A stretch of 64,000 nucleotides of DNA, taken from positions 236,964,001 through 237,028,000 of the forward strand of contig OZ024740.1 in NCBI GenBank assembly GCA_964016885.1. The letters are read 5' to 3'. The notes beneath the pieces were generated by a model. The model did no database searches, was not told the DNA's origin, and worked only from the letters and a program-made list of their open reading frames with translations. The position numbers and the translations under genes were made by a program. Source of the DNA: Eledone cirrhosa. Lineage: Eukaryota. Below are positions 18,832 to 47,664 of this stretch, in pieces (the stretch's first letter is position 1; each line of letters starts with the position of its first letter).

Positions 18832-20453
18832 TCATCATCATCATCATCAACGTTTAACGTCCGTGTTCCACGCTTGCATGGGTTTGGACGGGGGTAGTCC
18901 CATTTGAGGCAAGAGTGATTATCTTGCTCGCATAGGACTGTCTGGCAGGTTTTCTACAGTTGGATGCCCTTCCTAACACCAACCACATTTACAGTGTGGG
19001 TCTGGGAGGTTTTTACCGTGTTGCCTACACGGCCACATTACAGCGTGGACTGTGTGTCTTTTTGTCGTGACACCTACACGATCTCATTTGTTTCGGCCTC
19101 GATGGCGCGGCACCAACATAACTTTACATAGAACGGGGTGGTGTGGATGGGGTGGGGGTGGGGGTGGTGGGACGGGGTGTATTTTGTTAGAGATGCCTAC
19201 TGGCTGGAGTAGGTTTTACTATATATTTAGGTAAGGCGGGTCTTCTCTGTTACTGAGTACCGCCAAAGGTCTCGGTCCAGTGACATTGTCTTGGAGAGGT
19301 GTAAGTGTGTGATGTCGGAGTTTATCAGCTCGTCCCAGGTTTTTCTAGGTCTGCCTATTCCGTGACTACCGTCTATCTTTATTGCCCTGCACTTTGTTAT
19401 ACAGCTATCGACTTTCATGCGCATCACGTGTCCATACCAACGTAGCCTTCTCTCGAGTAAACAACATCTGATCCCTCTTATCTCTAATTTTTTCCTTAGT
19501 TCGTTTATGCTTTGCCGTTCACGTATATTACTGTTACACATCCAGCGGAGCATGCAAGCTTCGTTCCTCTCTAGTCTGCGTATATCCTCTGCACACAATG
19601 CCCAGGTCTCACTGCCATGCAGCATTGCTGTTCGTATGCAGGCATCGTACAACCTGCCTTTCATTTTTAGTGAGAACCCTTTAGCAGCTAATAGTGGTAT
19701 AAGCTCTCTGAACTTTTTCCAACCAGTTCTGACTCTAGCTACAGTACTTTCAGAGCACCCTCCCCCACTGCTGATTTTATCGCCCAGGTAACGGAAGCTG
19801 TCCACTATTTCTATAGAACCCTCTGCGCAATTGAAAGAGCTAGTAGTTTGTGGGCACTTGCTGCTACTTATTGCACCAGAGCACCGGCCACATGTAAAAT
19901 CTATGTTCTTAGTTAGCTTACCTGTGATCCCACTACATCTTTTATGCACCCATACTTTGCATTTAGGACATAAAATGGAGTTTCTACCTACGCCTTTCCT
20001 ACACACCGAGCACGACCATTTCCCAGAAGGGACCGCCGCCTTGTTTTCTTTCCTACAAACTAGTACTTTGGTCTTAGCCAGGTTAATTTTAAGTCCTTTT
20101 GACTCTAGGCCGTGCTTCCATGTTTGGAATTTCTTCTCTAGCTCGGCCATTGATTCCGCTATGAGTGTCAGGTCGTCTGCGTATAGGAGTTCCCATGGGC
20201 AGCCTGTCTTGAACTCCTCTGTTATAGCCTGAAGGGCAATAATAAATAGTAGTGGGCTGAGAACAGAGCCCTGATGGACGCCAACTTTTACGCTAAACTC
20301 TTCACTATATTCGTTGTTAATTCTAACCTTGCTGACTGTTTCTTTATACATGGCTTGTATAGCCCTCACAAGCCATTCGTCAACGCCTAGTTTTCTAAGA
20401 GCCCACCAGATAATGGAGCGGGGGACTCTGTCGAAGGCTTTCTCCAAGTCGTT
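18832..20453 (-). mobile_element. 5'-truncated RTE-clade LINE (long 3'UTR subfamily), copy A
   Basis: Open frame 19227-20447 followed by a 3'UTR of about 390 nt and an (ATG)n tail; flanked by (TA)n. Confidence 0.95.
19227..20447 (-). CDS. RTE ORF C-terminal part: RT ([24 protein letters not shown]), PHD-type zinc finger and C-terminal domain; truncated TE copy
   Basis: 406 codons without a stop; no upstream endonuclease domain, so it is not autonomous. Confidence 0.85.
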
Positions 20454-20742
20454 ATAAATATATAAATAAATATATATATATAAATATATATATAAATATA
20501 TATATATAAATATATATATATAAATATATATATATAAATATATATATATAAATATATATATATAAATATATATATATAAATATATATATATAAATATATA
20601 TATATAAATATATATATATAAATATATATATATAAATATATATATAAATATATATATATAAATATATATATATAAATATATATATATAAATATATATATA
20701 TAAATATATATATAAATATATATATATAAATATATATATATA

Positions 20743-20788
<46 letters not shown>

Positions 20789-20807
20789 TATATATAAAAA
20801 TATATAT

Positions 20808-20906
<99 letters not shown>

Positions 20907-20974
20907 TATACATATAAAAAAAATATATATATATATATAAAAATATATATATATAAAAATATATATATATATAT

Positions 20975-21006
<32 letters not shown>

Positions 21007-21303
21007 ATACATAAAAAAATATATATATATATATAAATATATATATATAAAAATATATATATAAAAATATATATATAAAAATATATATATAAAAATATAT
21101 ATATAAAAATATAAATATATATATATACATATAAAAAAAATATATATATATATAAAAATATATATATATTTAAAAATATATATATATATATATATATAAA
21201 TATATATAAAAATATATATATATATTAAAAATATATATATATATTAAAAATATATATATATATATATATGTATATAAATAAATATATATACAAAAAAATA
21301 TAT
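20454..21303. repeat. (TA)n-derived array with periodic aa interruptions
   Basis: Direct reading; source of the spurious YI-repeat ORFs. Confidence 0.95.
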
Positions 21304-21723: not shown

Positions 21724-23746
21724 TATCATCATCATCATCATCGTTTAACGTCCATATTCCACGCTTGCATGGGTTTGGACTTGAGGCAAGAGTGGTTGTC
21801 TTGCTCGCATAGGACTGTCTGGCGGATTTTCTACGGCTGGATGCCTTTCCTAACACCAACCACATTTACAGTGTGGGACTGGGAGGTTTTTACCATGTTA
21901 CCTACACGGCCACATTACAGCGGGGACTGTGTGTTTTTTTTGTTGTGACACCTACACGACCTCATTTGTTTCGGACTGGATGTTGTGGTACCAACATAAC
22001 TTTACATTGAAAGGGGGTGGTGTGGATGGGGTGGGGGTAGTGGGACGGGGGTGTATTTTTGTTAGAGGTGCCTACTGACTGTAGTAGGTTTCACTTTGTA
22101 CTTAGGTAAGGCGGGTCTTCTGTATTACTGTGTAGCGCCAAAGATCTTGGTCCAGTGACATTGTCTTGGAGAGGTGTAGGTGTGTGAGGTCGGACTTTAT
22201 CAAGTCGTCCCAGGTTTTTCTGGGTCTGCCTACTCCGTGACTACCGTTTATTTTTATTGCCCTGCACTTTTTTATACAGCTGTCGTCTTTCATGCGCATC
22301 ACGTGACTATACCAATGTAGTCTTCTCTCAAGTAAACAACATCTGATCCCTCTTATTTCTAATTTTTCCCTTAGTTCGTTTATGCTTTGCTGTTCACGTA
22401 TATTACTATTACACATCCAGTGGTGCATGCATGCTTCGTTCCTCTTCAGTCTGCGTATATCCTCTGCACACAATGCCCAGGTCTCACTGCCATGTAACAT
22501 TGCTGTTCATATGCAGGCATCATACAGCCTGCCTTTCATTTTTAGAGAGAACCCTTTAGCGGCTAATAGTGGTATAAGCTCTCTGAACTTTTTCCATCCA
22601 GTTCTGACTCTAGCTACTGTATTTTCAGAGCACCCTCCCCCACTGCTGATTTTGTCACCCAAGTAACGGAAGGTGTCCACTATTTCTATAGAACCATCTG
22701 TGCAATGGAATGAGCTAGTATTCTGTGGGCACTTGCCGCTACTTATTGCACCAGAGCACCGGCCACATATAAAATCTATAATCTTAGTTAGCTTACCTGT
22801 GATCCCACTACATCTTTTATGCACCCATACTTTGCATTTGGGACATAAAATGGAGTTTCTGCCTACTCCTTTCCTACACACTGAGCATGGCCATTTCCCG
22901 GATGGGACCGGTGCCCTATTTTCCTTCCTACAAACTAGACAGGTTAATTTTAAGGCCTTTTGATTCTAGGCCATGCTTCCATGTTTGGAATTTCTTCTCT
23001 AGTTCAGCCATTTATTCAGCTATGAGCGTTAGATCATCTGCATATAGGAGTTCCCATGGGCAGCCGGTCTTGAACTCATCTGTTATAGCCTGAAGGGAAA
23101 TAATAAATAGTAGGGGGCTAAGAACAGAGCCCTGATGAACACCAACTTTTATGCTAAACTCTTCATTATATTCGTTGTTAATTCTAACCTTGCTGACTGT
23201 TTCTTTATACATGGCTTGTATAGCTCTCAAAAGCCATTTATAAACATCTAGTTTTCTAAGAGCCCACCAGATAATGGAACGGGGGACTCTGTCAAAGGCT
23301 TCCTCCAAGTCGACAAAAGCTAAGTATAGGGGTTTACTTTTAGCTAGGTACTTCTCCTGTAGTTGTCGTACAATGAAAAGAGCGTCTGTGGTAATTTTCC
23401 CTGACACAAACCCGAACTGCATTTCATCTAGATCAATTCGCTCTCTGATTAGTTGCGCTATTACTTTTTCTGTGACCTTCATGACCTGGTCAATCAATTT
23501 AATGCCTCTATAGTTACCCCTATCTAGGGCATCACCTTTACCCTTGTAGCAGTTAATGATGAAGCTGCTAAGCCAGTCCTTCGGAACAACCCCATTCTGT
23601 ATGACTTGGTTTACTATCCGGGTGACCATAGTGTGTCCCACCGTTCCAGAAGCTTTCAGCATTTCAGCAACTATTTCCGAAGGCCCAGCCGCCTTACCCG
23701 TCTTCATATCTTTGATTGCCTTACTTATTATACTACCTTCAACTAA
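21724..23746 (-). mobile_element. 5'-truncated RTE-clade LINE (long 3'UTR subfamily), copy B, with stops and frameshifts
   Basis: ORFs 23012-23749, 22507-22881 and 22102-22500 are closely similar to copy A; (ATG)n tail at about 21725; flanked by (TA)n. Confidence 0.95.
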
Positions 23747-23754
23747 CACTGAAA

Positions 23755-23958
23755 TATATATCTATGAAAATATATATATATAAAAATATACATATATAAA
23801 AATATATATATATAAAAATATATATATATAAAAATATATATATATATAAAAATATATATATATAAAAATATATATATATATAAAAATATATATATATAAA
23901 AATATATATATAAAAATATATATATATATATATACATATATAAAAATATATATATATA

Positions 23959-43729: not shown

Positions 43730-45279
43730 CTGAAAAATATTAAGTCAAATTTATTAGAGATGAATTTATCTCACATATTTTGATTAAAAAGAATTAGACT
43801 CAAAATTTATTATTATTAGATCAATAATGCATTACAATAATGTGGGTACCATTTGAGAGAAGAAAGAAAAGGAGAAGACAAAGACATGGTAATATACTTT
43901 TAAAGAAGACTTAAAAGAGCTTAACATCCCATGAGAAGTGACATGTGACCGAGCATAGAACCGGGATAGTTAGGGACTTCCTATACCAGATGTGTAGCAT
44001 GTCTGTTGGGAGGAAGTAACAACAAAGATAAGAAAAATGTTTTTAAAAATATTTTTCAAGAAAACTTCAGTTTTCGCTTGAATATATTGGTTTTTACATA
44101 TCCCAATGTATTTTTAGTTTTATATTTAAATATTCTGTTTATACCGGCATTCCACAACTTATCTATCTAAATACACAATATTCATTTTCATTAGACATTA
44201 CTATAATATAAACATGAACATGCAGTTAATTATTAGGTGGGATAGAATTTTTTCCTAGCATTGGTTTCCTTTATCTTTTCAGCCACATTATTGGAGAATG
44301 CCATAATTTTTGTTGGCAAGTAAGAAACCTAAAAATGACAAATGACATGAACTTCAAAACAAACTCTAGCAGTCTACTATTCTGTGCTAGTTATACAAAA
44401 TGGTGTCGAAACAACATTGTTCACAAATGTGGACAACAGAATTAAAAATGTATCTCCTTTAATCAATTTTTATTAAAATAACTGTAGTTTTAATGAACAT
44501 AATGCATTCAATTAAGACAAATAAAGGATTCTTTCCCTTCCTAAACAAAAAAAGCAGAGATATTCATACACATATTGTTTCCTAAAAAGTATTGCATCAT
44601 ATGTGTACTTGTGTGTACATACACATACACATGTCACACCCTACTGTCTTAAAAAAGTGAAAGAAACATTGTATAGTGTAGTCTTAGATACACTATATCT
44701 GGACAAAAATAAGAGAGGATGGCAAGAATAATTTGCAGCTAAACAAATACAGTATTAGTATTCCTGTACTTTCTGGAAATGTTCCATCACCCCCCTACCA
44801 TTCTCAACAAGAAATTCTTCACACAGAGATGAAAACTGAATTTCTTATATCTGATATCATGAATATGACAGATATTTGTTCTTTAACCCTAATGAGACCC
44901 TAATCAAACAGACCTATGATCACAAGCATTCTGGTTATGGCCATCCTATTCTCTTAGCAGTTTATAAGATTAAATTATTTTAATGTAAAAACAAATAACG
45001 AAACGAAATTAAATTTCGTTTCGTTTGTAACTCACTTTTGTATGACTGACGCTTAAACAATTAAGTTAAAAATGTACATCCACATATGTATACTGAAATA
45101 CTAGTATGCATATGAATACACACACGTGTACATATGTAGATGTACCGAGTTTTTCACTGGACACTTTACTGTGAGTGTCCAGCTATTCTGTATGTAAACA
45201 CACAGACAAACCGGTTTTTAGAGTCATACTGGTTTTCGAGGAAACACCTTTCCTCTATTCTCCAGAAAGCCAGACAAGG

Positions 45280-45324
45280 AATATTGGACTAGTTTCGATG
45301 TTGTTACATCTCATCAGCAATATT
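45280..45324 (-). ncRNA. Minimal type I hammerhead ribozyme (canonical)
   Basis: AATATTG-CTGATGA-GATGT-aaca-ACATC-GAAA-ctag-TC-CAATATT: perfect 7-bp stem I, 5-bp stem II with G10.1-C11.1, palindromic ACTAGT stem III, GUC triplet. Confidence 0.92.
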
Positions 45325-45367
45325 TACCTATCTTCCGGCCTTTCTAGAGAATCGTAAAAGCACATAT

Positions 45368-45429
45368 CGTTATATGCTTTTTCTATGAAAATTAGTAGTG
45401 GGCAGACTAATTTGCATAGAGCGTGAGTA
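45368..45429 (-). promoter_or_regulatory. Putative snRNA-type promoter module (octamer 45410-45417, TATA-like catataa at about 45370-45376)
   Basis: Conserved with 25726-25786; function is inferred only. Confidence 0.4.
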
Positions 45430-45689
45430 CGTACCGGTTCAGCGGAGACGATAAAAACAAATAACGAAACGAAATTAAATTTTGTTTCGTTTGTAACTCA
45501 CTTTTGTATGACTGACGCTTAAACAATTAAGTTAAAAATGTACAACCACATATGTATACTGAAATACTAAATGTGTTCTTCATTTAAGATGGCAGGGCAT
45601 CATTTGCCAGAGATCTGGCTGTTGTTCACATGTTGAGCGACCATATAGTGACTCATTCAGTTGTAGTTTTATTATATAGTTAGATTGAG

Positions 45690-45900
45690 GGTGGTGGTTT
45701 GGCAAAATTATTAAAGTGTCAAACAAAATGCTTTGCAGCATTTGATTACAGCTATTTACATTCCAAGTTCAAATCCTACCAAGGTCAACTTTGCCATTCA
45801 TCTTTTGAGGTAATAAAATAAAGTACCAGTGAAGTACTTGATATAATCGATTTTATCCTCCACCCAAAAATTGCTGGCTCTGTGCCTAAATTGGTGACCA
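45690..45900 (+). mobile_element. Degenerate family-A-related SINE
   Basis: aagttcaaatcctaccaaggtcaactttgccattcatc...aaataaagtaccagt. Confidence 0.65.
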
Positions 45901-46029
45901 TTTATATAGTCAAATAGGGTGCAGCATGGAATTTTTCATCAGAAAAGATGTTCTGCCCCAGCATCTGACATAAGTACCCCACAGGTATAGTGTTAAAATA
46001 ACAACAAAATATAAAGTAGAATATAATAA

Positions 46030-47664
46030 AAAATGGTAAGGCTGCTGGACCATCGGGTATAGTTGCTGAGATGCTGAAGGCATCAGGGGACGTAGGCACT
46101 AAACTGGTTGTACGCATCATCAATTAGGCTCTATATGGTGGTGTCATACCCAAAGACTGGTGCAGCAGTATTCTCATAAATTGCTACAAAGGTAAAGGGG
46201 ATGCTCTGGAGAGGAGCAATTATAGGGGTATAAAACTGATGGATCAGGTTATGAAAGTGGCAGAAAGGATATTAGCACAACTAATTAGAGAAAGGGTCAA
46301 ACTAGATGAGATGCAGTTTGGTTTTGTGCCTGGGAAGAGTACAACAGATGCCCTCTTCTTGGTGAGACAATTGCAAGAGAGGTTCTTAGAGAAAAATAAG
46401 CCACTATACTTAGCCTTTGTTGACCTAGAGAAGGCCTTTGATAGGGTACCCCCGATCGGTCATCTGGTGGTCCCTAAGGAAACTAGGTGTTGAGGAATGG
46501 CTTGTGAGGACAGTGCAAACTTTGTACAGAGGTACTCTCAGTAAAGTCAGGGTAGGAATGGAATTTAGTGATGAATTCCAGATACAAGTAGGAGTACATC
46601 AAGGTCCGATCCTCAGCCCGCACTTGTTCATTATAGTCCTCCAAGCCATAACAGAGGAGTTTAAAACTGGCTGTCCATGGGAACTTCTCTATGCTGATGA
46701 TCTGGTTCTTATAGCAGAATCAGTAGAGGAGCTAGAGAAGAAATTCTGGCTATAGAAACAGCAGTTGGAAGCAAGAGGACTGAGAGTGACCCAGCTAAGA
46801 CAAAAGTGTTGATGAGTAGAAAAGAGCACAAAACTCTGATTCCGTCAGGGAAATGGCCATGTTCGATATGCAGAAAAGGAACTGGCATAAATTCTATAAA
46901 ATGCACACAATGCAGATCCTGGGTACACAAGAGATGTAGCGGGATAGCAGGCAAACTAACAGGTAGGGAGAAATATGTATGAAGTAGATGTACAGGGAAA
47001 TTAGACAGTAGAAGTCACATTGATAGACACATTTTTCAAATGCAGGAGGGTGCTATAGAAGTGGTAGATAGCTTCCGGTACCTAGGAGATCAGATTAGCA
47101 TGGGAGGAGGGTGTTCCGAGGCCATAGTATCTAAAATAAGGACAGGTTGGAAGAAGTTTAGGGAGCTGCTTCCTCTGCTGACGAAGAAGGGTTTCTCCCA
47201 TGTTATGCACTCCCAGTTGTATGATGCCTGTATGAGGAGTGCGATGCTGCATGGTAGTGAGACATGGGCAGCAACTGCAGAGGATATGCGACAATTGGAG
47301 AGAAATGAGGCATGCAGTGTAAATGTGCGTGAACGACCCAGCATAAATGTGTTGAGAGAGAAACTGTGTCTGAGAGGGATAGAATGTAGTGTACGGGAGA
47401 GGAGACTGAGGTGGTATGGACATGTGATGCGCATGGAGGATGACCGATGGGTGAAGAAGTGCCAGGAAATGCCAGTTGAAGGAAGATGTGGTAGAGGTAG
47501 ACCACGAAAAACATGGGCGGAGGTGGTGAGAACAGACCTCAGATCGTTGAAGCTCACGGTGGAGATGACGAAGGACCGTGACGAGTGGGGAGATGCTGTG
47601 CTGAATAAGACCCGTCCCACCCTTGCGAGCAGGGAAGAGCAGACGTAAAATGATGATGATGATG
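46030..47664 (+). mobile_element. 5'-truncated RTE LINE (short-tail subfamily), copy C
   Basis: [40 protein letters not shown] remnant, [12 protein letters not shown]; the stop codon is followed directly by (ATG)n. Confidence 0.95.

What the first reader, a model, noticed from the sequence alone, without database searches (positions are those of the whole stretch)
44986..45569. Retrozyme-like element: 1.25 copies of a 466-nt monomer carrying a perfect minimal hammerhead ribozyme
Seen: 44986-45103 recurs at 45452-45569 with only 2 substitutions. On the minus strand, 45280-45324 reads AAUAUUG CUGAUGA GAUGU aaca ACAUC GAAA cuag UC CAAUAUU. Stem I extends through internal loops (ctctagaaaggcc...gatagg pairs with ccttgtc.ggctttctggag). 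There are two further hairpins (about 44997-45025 and 45156-45183) and no meaningful ORF. Established: minimal type I hammerheads with a palindromic stem III typify Penelope-like element pseudo-LTRs and animal non-LTR retrozymes, and they cleave best as dimers. Inference: the terminal redundancy is what reverse transcription more than once around a circular 466-nt RNA would leave, so this may be a recent insertion of a circular-RNA retroelement family in this lineage.
Basis: partly seen in the sequence, partly recalled or inferred. Interest (0 to 1): 0.9.

Follow-up and report, generated by a model that had tools for sequence, protein, structure and literature searches.

The report
Hammerhead retrozyme with Penelope insertion footprint
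A 466-base non-coding repeat with a predicted self-cutting RNA motif sits here as one of thousands of near-identical copies, at a site that is empty in another sequencing run; it is a known kind of jumping element, likely copied from a small RNA circle by a Penelope-type retrotransposon enzyme, and its insertion pattern makes that copying mechanism testable.

Summary
Observation confirmed: 118-nt redundancy, 2 substitutions, period 466, hammerhead on the minus strand. It is one insertion of a large young family (1,491 exact hammerhead cores; 7,392 copies of an adjacent 18-mer). A public run holds this site empty, with a 5-nt target duplication.

The hammerhead is not minimal: stems I and II covary across two families while the loops stay fixed, like the extended amphibian type with 1-bp stem III.

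The 118 nt prove nothing alone: copies have a fixed start and random truncation. The family shows a Penelope-like (PLE) footprint: TA-microsatellite targets, two fixed starts about 69-74 nt apart, and 51 of 51 clean two-armed insertions pairing one of each. Both arms share one haplotype and read through the cut site, which favours repeated copying of one monomer (a circle); a few came from mixed multimers. A young Neptune-type PLE follows the same rule with 68-nt spacing, but shares no sequence with it.

Verdict: new member of the animal non-LTR retrozymes. Cleavage, circles and helper identity are untested. This scan noted the same pattern on other DNA (21 notes).

The parts
44982..44986 (+). 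left copy of the 5-nt target-site duplication AATGT; its last T also matches the first base of the unit
   Evidence: sequence; empty-site contig joins 44981 to 45570 with 5 letters fitting either side
44986..45451 (-). one full 466-nt unit of the retrozyme (RNA sense is the minus strand)
45452..45569 (-). first 118 nt of a second unit, ending at a random truncation point
   Evidence: truncation points spread over the whole unit
45570..45574 (+). right copy of the target-site duplication AATGT
44985..44987 (-). fixed end A (unit position 466/1): inferred reverse-transcription start; the end used by this copy
   Evidence: 56 of 113 arms end at 465-1
45053..45060 (-). fixed end B (unit positions 68-75, mostly 69 and 74): second inferred start; not used as an end here
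   Evidence: 50 of 113 arms end at 68-75
44986..45053 (-). PLE-type 'tail': the stretch between ends A and B, present on one arm only
   Evidence: concept from PMC11167929
44997..45025 (.). perfect 14-bp hairpin inside the tail (second copy 45463-45491)
45074..45145 (.). long imperfect hairpin (20-nt arms), similar in the second family
45156..45183 (.). short hairpin
45280..45324 (-). type I hammerhead core; predicted cut after GUC, between 45287 and 45286; stem III is one A-U pair capped by palindromic CUAG
45250..45352 (-). extended stem I with the conserved UAA/U internal loop and GG/CC pairs

Best explanation
This is one insertion of a large, young, non-coding hammerhead repeat family (an animal non-LTR retrozyme), likely pasted here by the reverse transcriptase/GIY-YIG protein of a Neptune-type Penelope-like element that would copy a 466-nt RNA circle made by predicted ribozyme cleavage and ligation. 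Shown: family size, fixed ends A and B, random other ends, TA-microsatellite targets, target duplication, empty allele, one-A-one-B rule, shared haplotype of both arms, read-through of the cut site. Inferred: arrays are transcribed on the minus strand; hammerheads cut as dimers through the palindromic stem III; monomers are circularised; the PLE protein makes a staggered cut in AT-rich DNA; one 3' end primes at A and the other at B on the same template; each cDNA runs round the circle a variable number of times; the two cDNA ends join head to head. This window's copy is the one-armed outcome: start at A, 1.25 turns, 5-nt duplication. A minority of insertions used a mixed multimer as template.
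For: Copy number: 1,491 exact 45-nt cores, control 0; 7,380+12 copies of an 18-mer. Empty allele at flank depth (13.4 vs about 13.6) with 5-nt overlap. TA targets at 97 of 106 A/B ends. 51 of 56 inverted pairs have two clean ends, all 51 one A plus one B, none AA or BB. Arms of one insertion share 108 of 198 variant sites, arms of different insertions 384 of 13,538. Units deviate 0.27% within an insertion against 1.9% between insertions; rare variants fixed in all units of both arms in 13 of 43 insertions; only 7 of 127 unit-specific variants recur in the same unit of the other arm. Copies do not stop at the cut: 7,380 continue, 12 differ, of which 5 break there. PLE family A has 142 of 142 scored copies at 98-100% protein identity, RT plus GIY-YIG, a CxxxxCxxC linker, TA targets and the same one-of-each rule in 11 of 11 unambiguous two-ended loci with 68-nt spacing; three other PLE families have 47, 37 and 37 nt. 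Literature: two internal RT starts define the PLE tail, dimer predicted (PMC11167929); circles and PLE mobilisation proposed for retrozymes (PMC7229834).
Against: No RNA or cleavage data. No sequence link between the retrozyme and PLE family A (local score 34, best shuffle 35); only four Neptune-type and one Poseidon-type family were looked at among 10,596 GIY-YIG candidates. Some insertions carry unit-specific variants in both arms in the same register (L053 three, L066 two, L151 one; L058 partly; L054 and L164 out of register), which a monomer circle cannot give; L066 does not fit a dimer or trimer circle either. Higher-order periodicity in single arms (L040, L041/42) shows that arrays also change by local duplication. 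In PMC11167929 hammerhead cleavage was not needed for PLE insertion in vitro and no strand difference in start site was seen. In the Xenopus preprint only 1 of 9 predicted retrozyme dimers cleaved. Loci were chosen by best match or as the first matches on contig C1, all containing the hammerhead region.
Confidence: 0.62

Rival explanations
1. Same PLE-driven insertion, but the template is a linear, uncut read-through transcript of a young homogeneous array; the hammerhead and any circle are dispensable, and arrays regain length by local duplication.
For: In-register unit-specific variants in both arms of L053, L066, L151; period-4 duplications inside arms; uncut RNA was the main substrate for a PLE in vitro (PMC11167929); most copies genome-wide appear to have the GUU triplet, usually a slower one (my own knowledge).
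Against: Only 7 of 127 unit-specific variants are shared in register, while rare variants are fixed across all units of both arms in 13 of 43 insertions, up to 19 units: this needs a single-unit bottleneck followed by reiteration. Hammerhead stems covary and the core is kept across two families.
Confidence: 0.22
2. The enzyme copies self-cleaved linear monomers and jumps from one molecule's 5' end to the next one's 3' end, building arrays without a circle.
For: In L053 the three variants lie within one cut-to-cut monomer, as a switch at the cut would give.
Against: No pile-up of ends at the cut (1 of 112 within 6 nt, 2.9 expected; 12 against 7,380 genome-wide); junctions at the cut are exact in the common hammerhead variants; units of one insertion are mostly alike.
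Confidence: 0.08
3. The helper is not PLE family A but an unseen PLE whose pseudo-LTR is homologous to this repeat (the repeat being its deletion derivative), or a LINE.
For: In Xenopus 24 of 57 retrozyme families matched known elements, 21 of the 22 being PLEs; my survey of PLE families was small; the 68-nt match could be chance.
Against: No coding sequence continuous with the unit in the loci read; 30 second-family loci gave one PLE RT hit, a truncated neighbour across a microsatellite; two fixed internal ends and inverted arms do not fit LINE poly(A)-type priming (my own knowledge). This rival changes the helper, not the mechanism.
Confidence: 0.3
4. A satellite DNA spread at DNA level (unequal crossing-over, rolling-circle DNA, or a one-off local duplication).
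For: Tandem arrays of up to about 31 units and local higher-order duplication.
Against: Empty allele with target duplication, dispersal over many contigs, two fixed ends and the 51-of-51 rule, the same geometry in coding PLEs.
Confidence: 0.02

Closest known systems
Animal non-LTR retrozymes (Cervera and de la Pena 2020, PMC7229834; parts 2-4 of 6 read)
   Same: Small tandem non-coding repeat with a type I hammerhead, low GC, target duplication longer than 4 bp, strongly self-paired predicted circle; PLEs or LINEs proposed as helpers
   Different: 466 nt is just above their usual 150-450 bp; that paper (parts read) does not describe fixed ends, inverted arms, microsatellite targets or a matched helper; here circles and cleavage are untested
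Axolotl/newt HHR_Amex1 hammerhead (PMC7229834)
   Same: Helix III of a single pair capped by a palindromic tetraloop, loop 1-loop 2 elements kept, expected to work as a dimer
   Different: Different sequence and host; activity not measured here
Li, Clavereau and Pollet 2026, bioRxiv 10.64898/2026.07.22.740005 (parts 1-3 of 5 read; supplements closed)
   Same: Retrozymes as non-autonomous partners of PLEs
   Different: Their evidence is co-occurrence and pseudo-LTR homology, mainly in vertebrates, and they favour local tandem amplification; here the evidence is the insertion footprint, and no pseudo-LTR homology was found
EN+ Penelope-like elements, Neptune type (Craig et al. 2021, passages read; Frangieh et al. 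2024, PMC11167929, parts 1-2 of 4 read)
   Same: 5' truncation, adjacent inverted copy, tail on one end, microsatellite targets, two internal RT starts 3' of the hammerhead
   Different: No ORF; tail about 69-74 nt rather than 30-40; starts lie about 230 and 300 nt 3' of the cut; extended rather than minimal hammerhead

Membership tests
Animal non-LTR retrozyme | Short tandem repeat with a type I hammerhead in each unit | tested here: met
Animal non-LTR retrozyme | No protein coding capacity, no LTR pair | tested here: met
   longest ATG frame 50 aa; ends are one fixed and one random. PBS/PPT not searched for
Animal non-LTR retrozyme | Low GC; target duplication longer than 4 bp when present | tested here: met
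   33% GC for 44001-46000; 5 nt here, 11 nt at L063, about 12 at four interrupted microsatellites
Animal non-LTR retrozyme | Highly self-paired predicted circle with the hammerhead free to fold | tested here: met
   circular fold -156.5 kcal/mol, z -14 against 40 shuffles; stems I and II form, core is misfolded in the MFE
Animal non-LTR retrozyme | Self-cleavage of the RNA | not testable with these tools
   sequence and covariation only
Animal non-LTR retrozyme | Expressed as linear and circular monomer RNA | not testable with these tools
   no run on record as RNA was available
'Active' retrozyme locus as defined by Li et al. 2026 | [quoted passage not shown] | tested here: not met
   this locus has one hammerhead; many other loci of the family meet it
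Minimal type I hammerhead of PLE pseudo-LTRs | Short helices, no conserved loop 1-loop 2 elements | tested here: not met
   loop UAAYAA, bulge UA(A/U)/U and GG/CC kept while stems I and II covary: 7 of 13 pairs with double changes, slid controls 1-2; the tertiary contact itself is inferred
PLE-mobilised element | 5' truncation, inverted adjacent copy, tail on one end only | tested here: met
   51 of 51 clean pairs; random head ends
PLE-mobilised element | Microsatellite or AT-rich target | tested here: met
   97 of 106 ends in (TA)n, the other 9 AT-rich
Derivative of a PLE pseudo-LTR | Sequence homology to the pseudo-LTR of a coding PLE in the same genome | tested here: inconclusive
   none in 30 GIY-YIG loci, 17 longer PLE loci and 12 downstream regions except separate retrozyme copies in shared microsatellites; genome not searched exhaustively
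Autonomous Penelope-like element | ORF with RT and GIY-YIG endonuclease | tested here: not met
   no PLE protein match anywhere in the window

The most novel reading that the evidence does not exclude
One dimer of the family A Neptune protein binds one retrozyme circle and starts both target strands on it, one subunit at end A and one at end B, both rolling round the same molecule; the retrozyme exploits this helper with no sequence homology, by matching the roughly 68-nt spacing of its two start sites, so tail length would be a helper-specificity code (the older second family has about 51 nt, nearer the 47 nt of PLE family B).
Probability: 0.3. Interest if true: 0.78.

Novelty: new member of a known kind. 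Interest (0 to 1): 0.52.

Why it matters
How animal retrozymes are mobilised, and how Penelope-like elements make their tandem, inverted and tailed insertions, are stated as open in the papers read (PMC7229834, 10.64898/2026.07.22.740005, Craig et al. 2021). This family gives a young, polymorphic, many-copy record with a strict rule (one A end, one B end, one haplotype) plus a named candidate enzyme in the same genome with the same geometry, so the circle-template and two-strand-priming models can be tested directly in an existing in vitro format. The element class itself is known, and this scan has met the pattern repeatedly.

Tried and rejected
Search for a coding PLE with a homologous pseudo-LTR: GIY-YIG family search, 30 loci, 17 longer loci, downstream alignments with shuffles, second-family loci against five PLE proteins; matches were separate retrozyme copies sharing a microsatellite. 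The 5.8-kb gap between inverted hammerheads at L158/159 holds no PLE-like frame that I recognised; not classified.

Expression: no RNA holder listed; no evidence either way. Single circular contigs of 495 and 496 letters in runs X4 and X8, and fragments in runs labelled as other organisms, were not taken as evidence of circular RNA or horizontal transfer: tandem DNA gives the same contig, the library kind is unknown, and trace DNA of a very high-copy repeat would explain them.

Head-to-head junctions: 3 or more shared letters in 9 of 34 measurable junctions against 6% at random, but 15 of 34 scored as filler, partly because variants stop the exact extension, and 6 of 40 could not be measured: suggestive only. 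Arm lengths correlate (rho 0.44, p 0.004, 40 pairs), confounded by selection.

My first reading that templates are mainly multimers (from L053, L066) was dropped after the full count. Weak Rfam microRNA-type hits are hairpin artefacts. Homologue search with the family A protein gave 852 relatives, mostly unnamed; it did not place the host. A look-up of earlier findings by sequence gave nothing. Literature searches for the insertion footprint or a cephalopod retrozyme listed no paper describing it; the library lacks most subscription papers and preprint supplements were closed.

Full report
OBSERVATION. The repeat is real: 44986-45103 recurs at 45452-45569, spacing 466, two substitutions, no extension on either side. 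On the minus strand lies a type I hammerhead with an intact core; Rfam Hammerhead_HH9 matches 45264-45335 at E 1.9e-7, below its gathering score (nothing at gathering level in the window). It is the only such motif in the window. The unit has no useful frame (50 aa on +, 19 aa on -), and as a circle it folds far better than shuffles (z -14, 40 shuffles). The predicted cut follows GUC, between 45287 and 45286 (unit positions 302/301).

THE RIBOZYME IS EXTENDED, NOT MINIMAL. Hammerheads collected from the loci in hand fall into this family and a second, 66-77% similar family. On 16 variants that I picked from the 57 listed, stems I and II change on both sides in 7 of 13 pairs, 93% of cells pair, slid controls give 1-2 such pairs (relatedness inflates the shuffle control). 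The loop UAA(C/U)AA, the UA(A/U)/U internal loop and the GG/CC pairs beyond it stay almost fixed, which is the layout of the HH9 model and suggests loop-loop contacts (inferred). Stem III is one A-U pair capped by palindromic CUAG; two copies can pair into six base pairs. PMC7229834 (parts 2-4 read) describes this design for axolotl HHR_Amex1, which cleaves poorly as monomer and well as dimer.

FAMILY. The genome (3.0 Gb) gave 571 candidates for the 584-nt query; 40 were scored, with 162 matches mostly 99-100% identical, in dispersed arrays. The exact 45-nt core occurs 1,491 times, control 0; an adjacent 18-mer 7,392 times, most of the listed ones with the base that makes the triplet GUU. These are lower bounds.

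THIS INSERTION IS RECENT. Run X1 holds a contig joining 44981 to 45570, skipping 588 letters with 5 fitting either side, at depth 13.4 where the flanks have about 13.6. That is the empty site: 583 inserted bases plus the duplicated AATGT visible on both sides. One run only; not confirmed by PCR.

INSERTION ANATOMY. I mapped 113 arms in 62 loci and a further 18 loci of the GUU subfamily. Loci were best matches or the first matches on contig C1, so they are not a random sample and all reach the hammerhead region. One end of an arm is fixed: 56 of 113 at unit position 465-1 (end A, the end used here), 50 at 68-75 (end B), 7 elsewhere. The other end is spread over the unit. 97 of 106 fixed ends abut (TA)n. 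Many insertions are two arms back to back with fixed ends outward: of 56 such pairs, 51 have two clean ends and all 51 are one A plus one B (30 BA, 21 AB; none AA or BB); 5 are rearranged or run off the stretch. Independent equal choice would give this with probability 2^-51. Several apparently one-armed copies have a second arm of only 8-14 letters of the other type (seen by eye; not counted). Duplications of about 11-12 nt are seen where the target is not a pure repeat. Hence the 118-nt redundancy is only a fixed start plus a truncation 1.25 units later.

THIS IS THE PLE FOOTPRINT. Craig et al. 2021 (passages) list 5' truncation, an adjacent inverted copy, a 30-40 bp tail on one end and (TA)n targets, and link a CX2-5CxxC linker to Neptune/Nematis. 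Frangieh et al. 2024 (PMC11167929, parts 1-2) show that a PLE protein cuts and extends both strands, starts at two internal RNA sites 3' of the hammerhead, that the tail is the stretch between them, that a dimer is predicted, and that hammerhead cleavage was not needed in vitro. Here A and B lie about 300 and 230 nt 3' of the cut.

CANDIDATE HELPER. The genome has many GIY-YIG elements (10,596 candidates, 150 scored). Five families were read: all have RT, four of the five proteins scored GIY-YIG in Pfam; A-D carry the cysteine linker, E does not. Family A is young (142 of 142 scored copies 98-100% identical, many with 775-codon frames), ends in (TA)n, has a minimal hammerhead variant in its pseudo-LTR, and shows one end of each type in 11 of 11 unambiguous two-ended loci among 19 examined (one more has a third arm). 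Its two ends are 68 nt apart; families B, C, D give 47, 37 and 37 (D from one case). The retrozyme's are 69 and 74, the second family's about 51. But there is no sequence similarity to family A, and few families were sampled, so the helper is a candidate only (about even odds).

WHICH TEMPLATE? Both arms come from one source: 108 of 198 variant sites shared within insertions against 384 of 13,538 between. A self-cleaved linear monomer would cap arms at the cut; genome-wide 7,380 copies continue past it and 12 differ, of which 5 are point changes, 2 internal deletions and 5 true breaks (breaks followed by a purine are hidden, so roughly double). Units deviate 0.27% within an insertion and 1.9% between insertions; rare variants are fixed in every unit of both arms in 13 of 43 informative insertions (49 variants, 25 of them from one distant subfamily copy), up to 19 units; only 7 of 127 unit-specific variants recur in the same unit of the other arm. 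This is what repeated copying of one unit gives, most simply a circle. Against exclusivity: L053, L066 and L151 share unit-specific variants in register, L058 partly, L054 and L164 out of register; L066 fits neither a monomer, dimer nor trimer circle; and single arms show period-4 duplications. So some templates were mixed multimers and arrays keep evolving locally. The two substitutions in this window do not decide the matter: one is a recurrent CpG change, the other private.

MECHANISM. Shown: everything in the four paragraphs above. Inferred: minus-strand transcription of arrays, dimer-assisted cleavage, ligation to a circle (host RtcB-type ligase by analogy, PMC7229834), staggered cut in AT-rich DNA, priming of the two strands at A and B with 1-2 nt of match to the TA target, rolling copying, head-to-head joining. 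This locus has a single hammerhead and so is likely a product of the cycle, not a source of monomers.

KNOWN AND NEW. It is a new member of the animal non-LTR retrozymes by every sequence-level criterion testable; cleavage and circles are untested. A PLE link is already proposed (PMC7229834; 10.64898/2026.07.22.740005, parts 1-3 read, where only 1 of 9 Xenopus dimers cleaved). The strict one-A-one-B rule, the haplotype test and a spacing-matched helper were not found in the papers listed (listings and abstracts only, apart from the four papers named); supplements were not read. Earlier AI notes of this scan report the same two-armed pattern for other units in this and other genomes (21 notes, 8 shown); I had reached the reading before seeing them and count them as no support. 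The host group is not established by my calls; a cephalopod is a guess from recall and from those notes' titles.

VERDICT. Real, young, known kind, with an unusually testable footprint. Interest 0.52.

Noticed in passing
L144:1880-2450, L139:8600-9850, L128:1580-2570, L167-L196: Second, older retrozyme family (units about 420-510 nt), 66-77% like this one, same hammerhead layout, homologous ends about 51 nt apart, in (TA)n; a degenerate motif that mostly matches it has 1,317 hits.
   Followed up: partly
L129 (G000:C1:145868000-145877900) and L200-L211: Young Neptune-type PLE family A; its pseudo-LTR holds a minimal hammerhead variant with U3:A8 in place of C3:G8 and palindromic stem III; start codon about 22-25 nt past its end A.
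   Followed up: partly
family-wide, window position 45287: Most copies appear to have GUU rather than GUC at the predicted cut; a subfamily has a compensatory double change in stem II (45298, 45309).
   Followed up: partly
runs X4, X6, X7, X8, X10, X14: Runs labelled as other organisms hold the unit at about 97-98% identity and low depth, twice as one circular contig; trace DNA, related species or RNA cannot be told apart.
   Followed up: partly
window 46000-47300: Broken LINE-type reverse transcriptase fragment on + (RTE-like by recall), about 430 bases from the insertion.
   Followed up: no
window 19230-21224 and 22510-23761, minus strand: Two RT plus PHD-finger retrotransposon frames (Pfam RVT_1, PHD).
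   Followed up: no
L134:1684, L138:8633-8644, L142:6265: A short palindromic element carrying a CUGAUGA...GAAAC hammerhead-like motif, next to (TA)n.
   Followed up: no
L158/L159 (G000:C1:154711700-154718100): Two inverted pieces of the retrozyme with the same truncation point, 5.5 kb apart, around a 735-codon frame that was not classified.
   Followed up: no
L032/L033 (G000:C28:43234500-43245700): Three identical 702-nt insertions with the same flanks: later segmental duplication of one insertion.
   Followed up: no
L169/L197 (G000:C1:26542200-26543700): Truncated PLE RT only 32-35% like families A-D, a further PLE lineage in this genome.
   Followed up: no
window 45690-45750: Another repeated sequence starts about 120 bases right of the insertion (depth rise and loose ends).
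   Followed up: no
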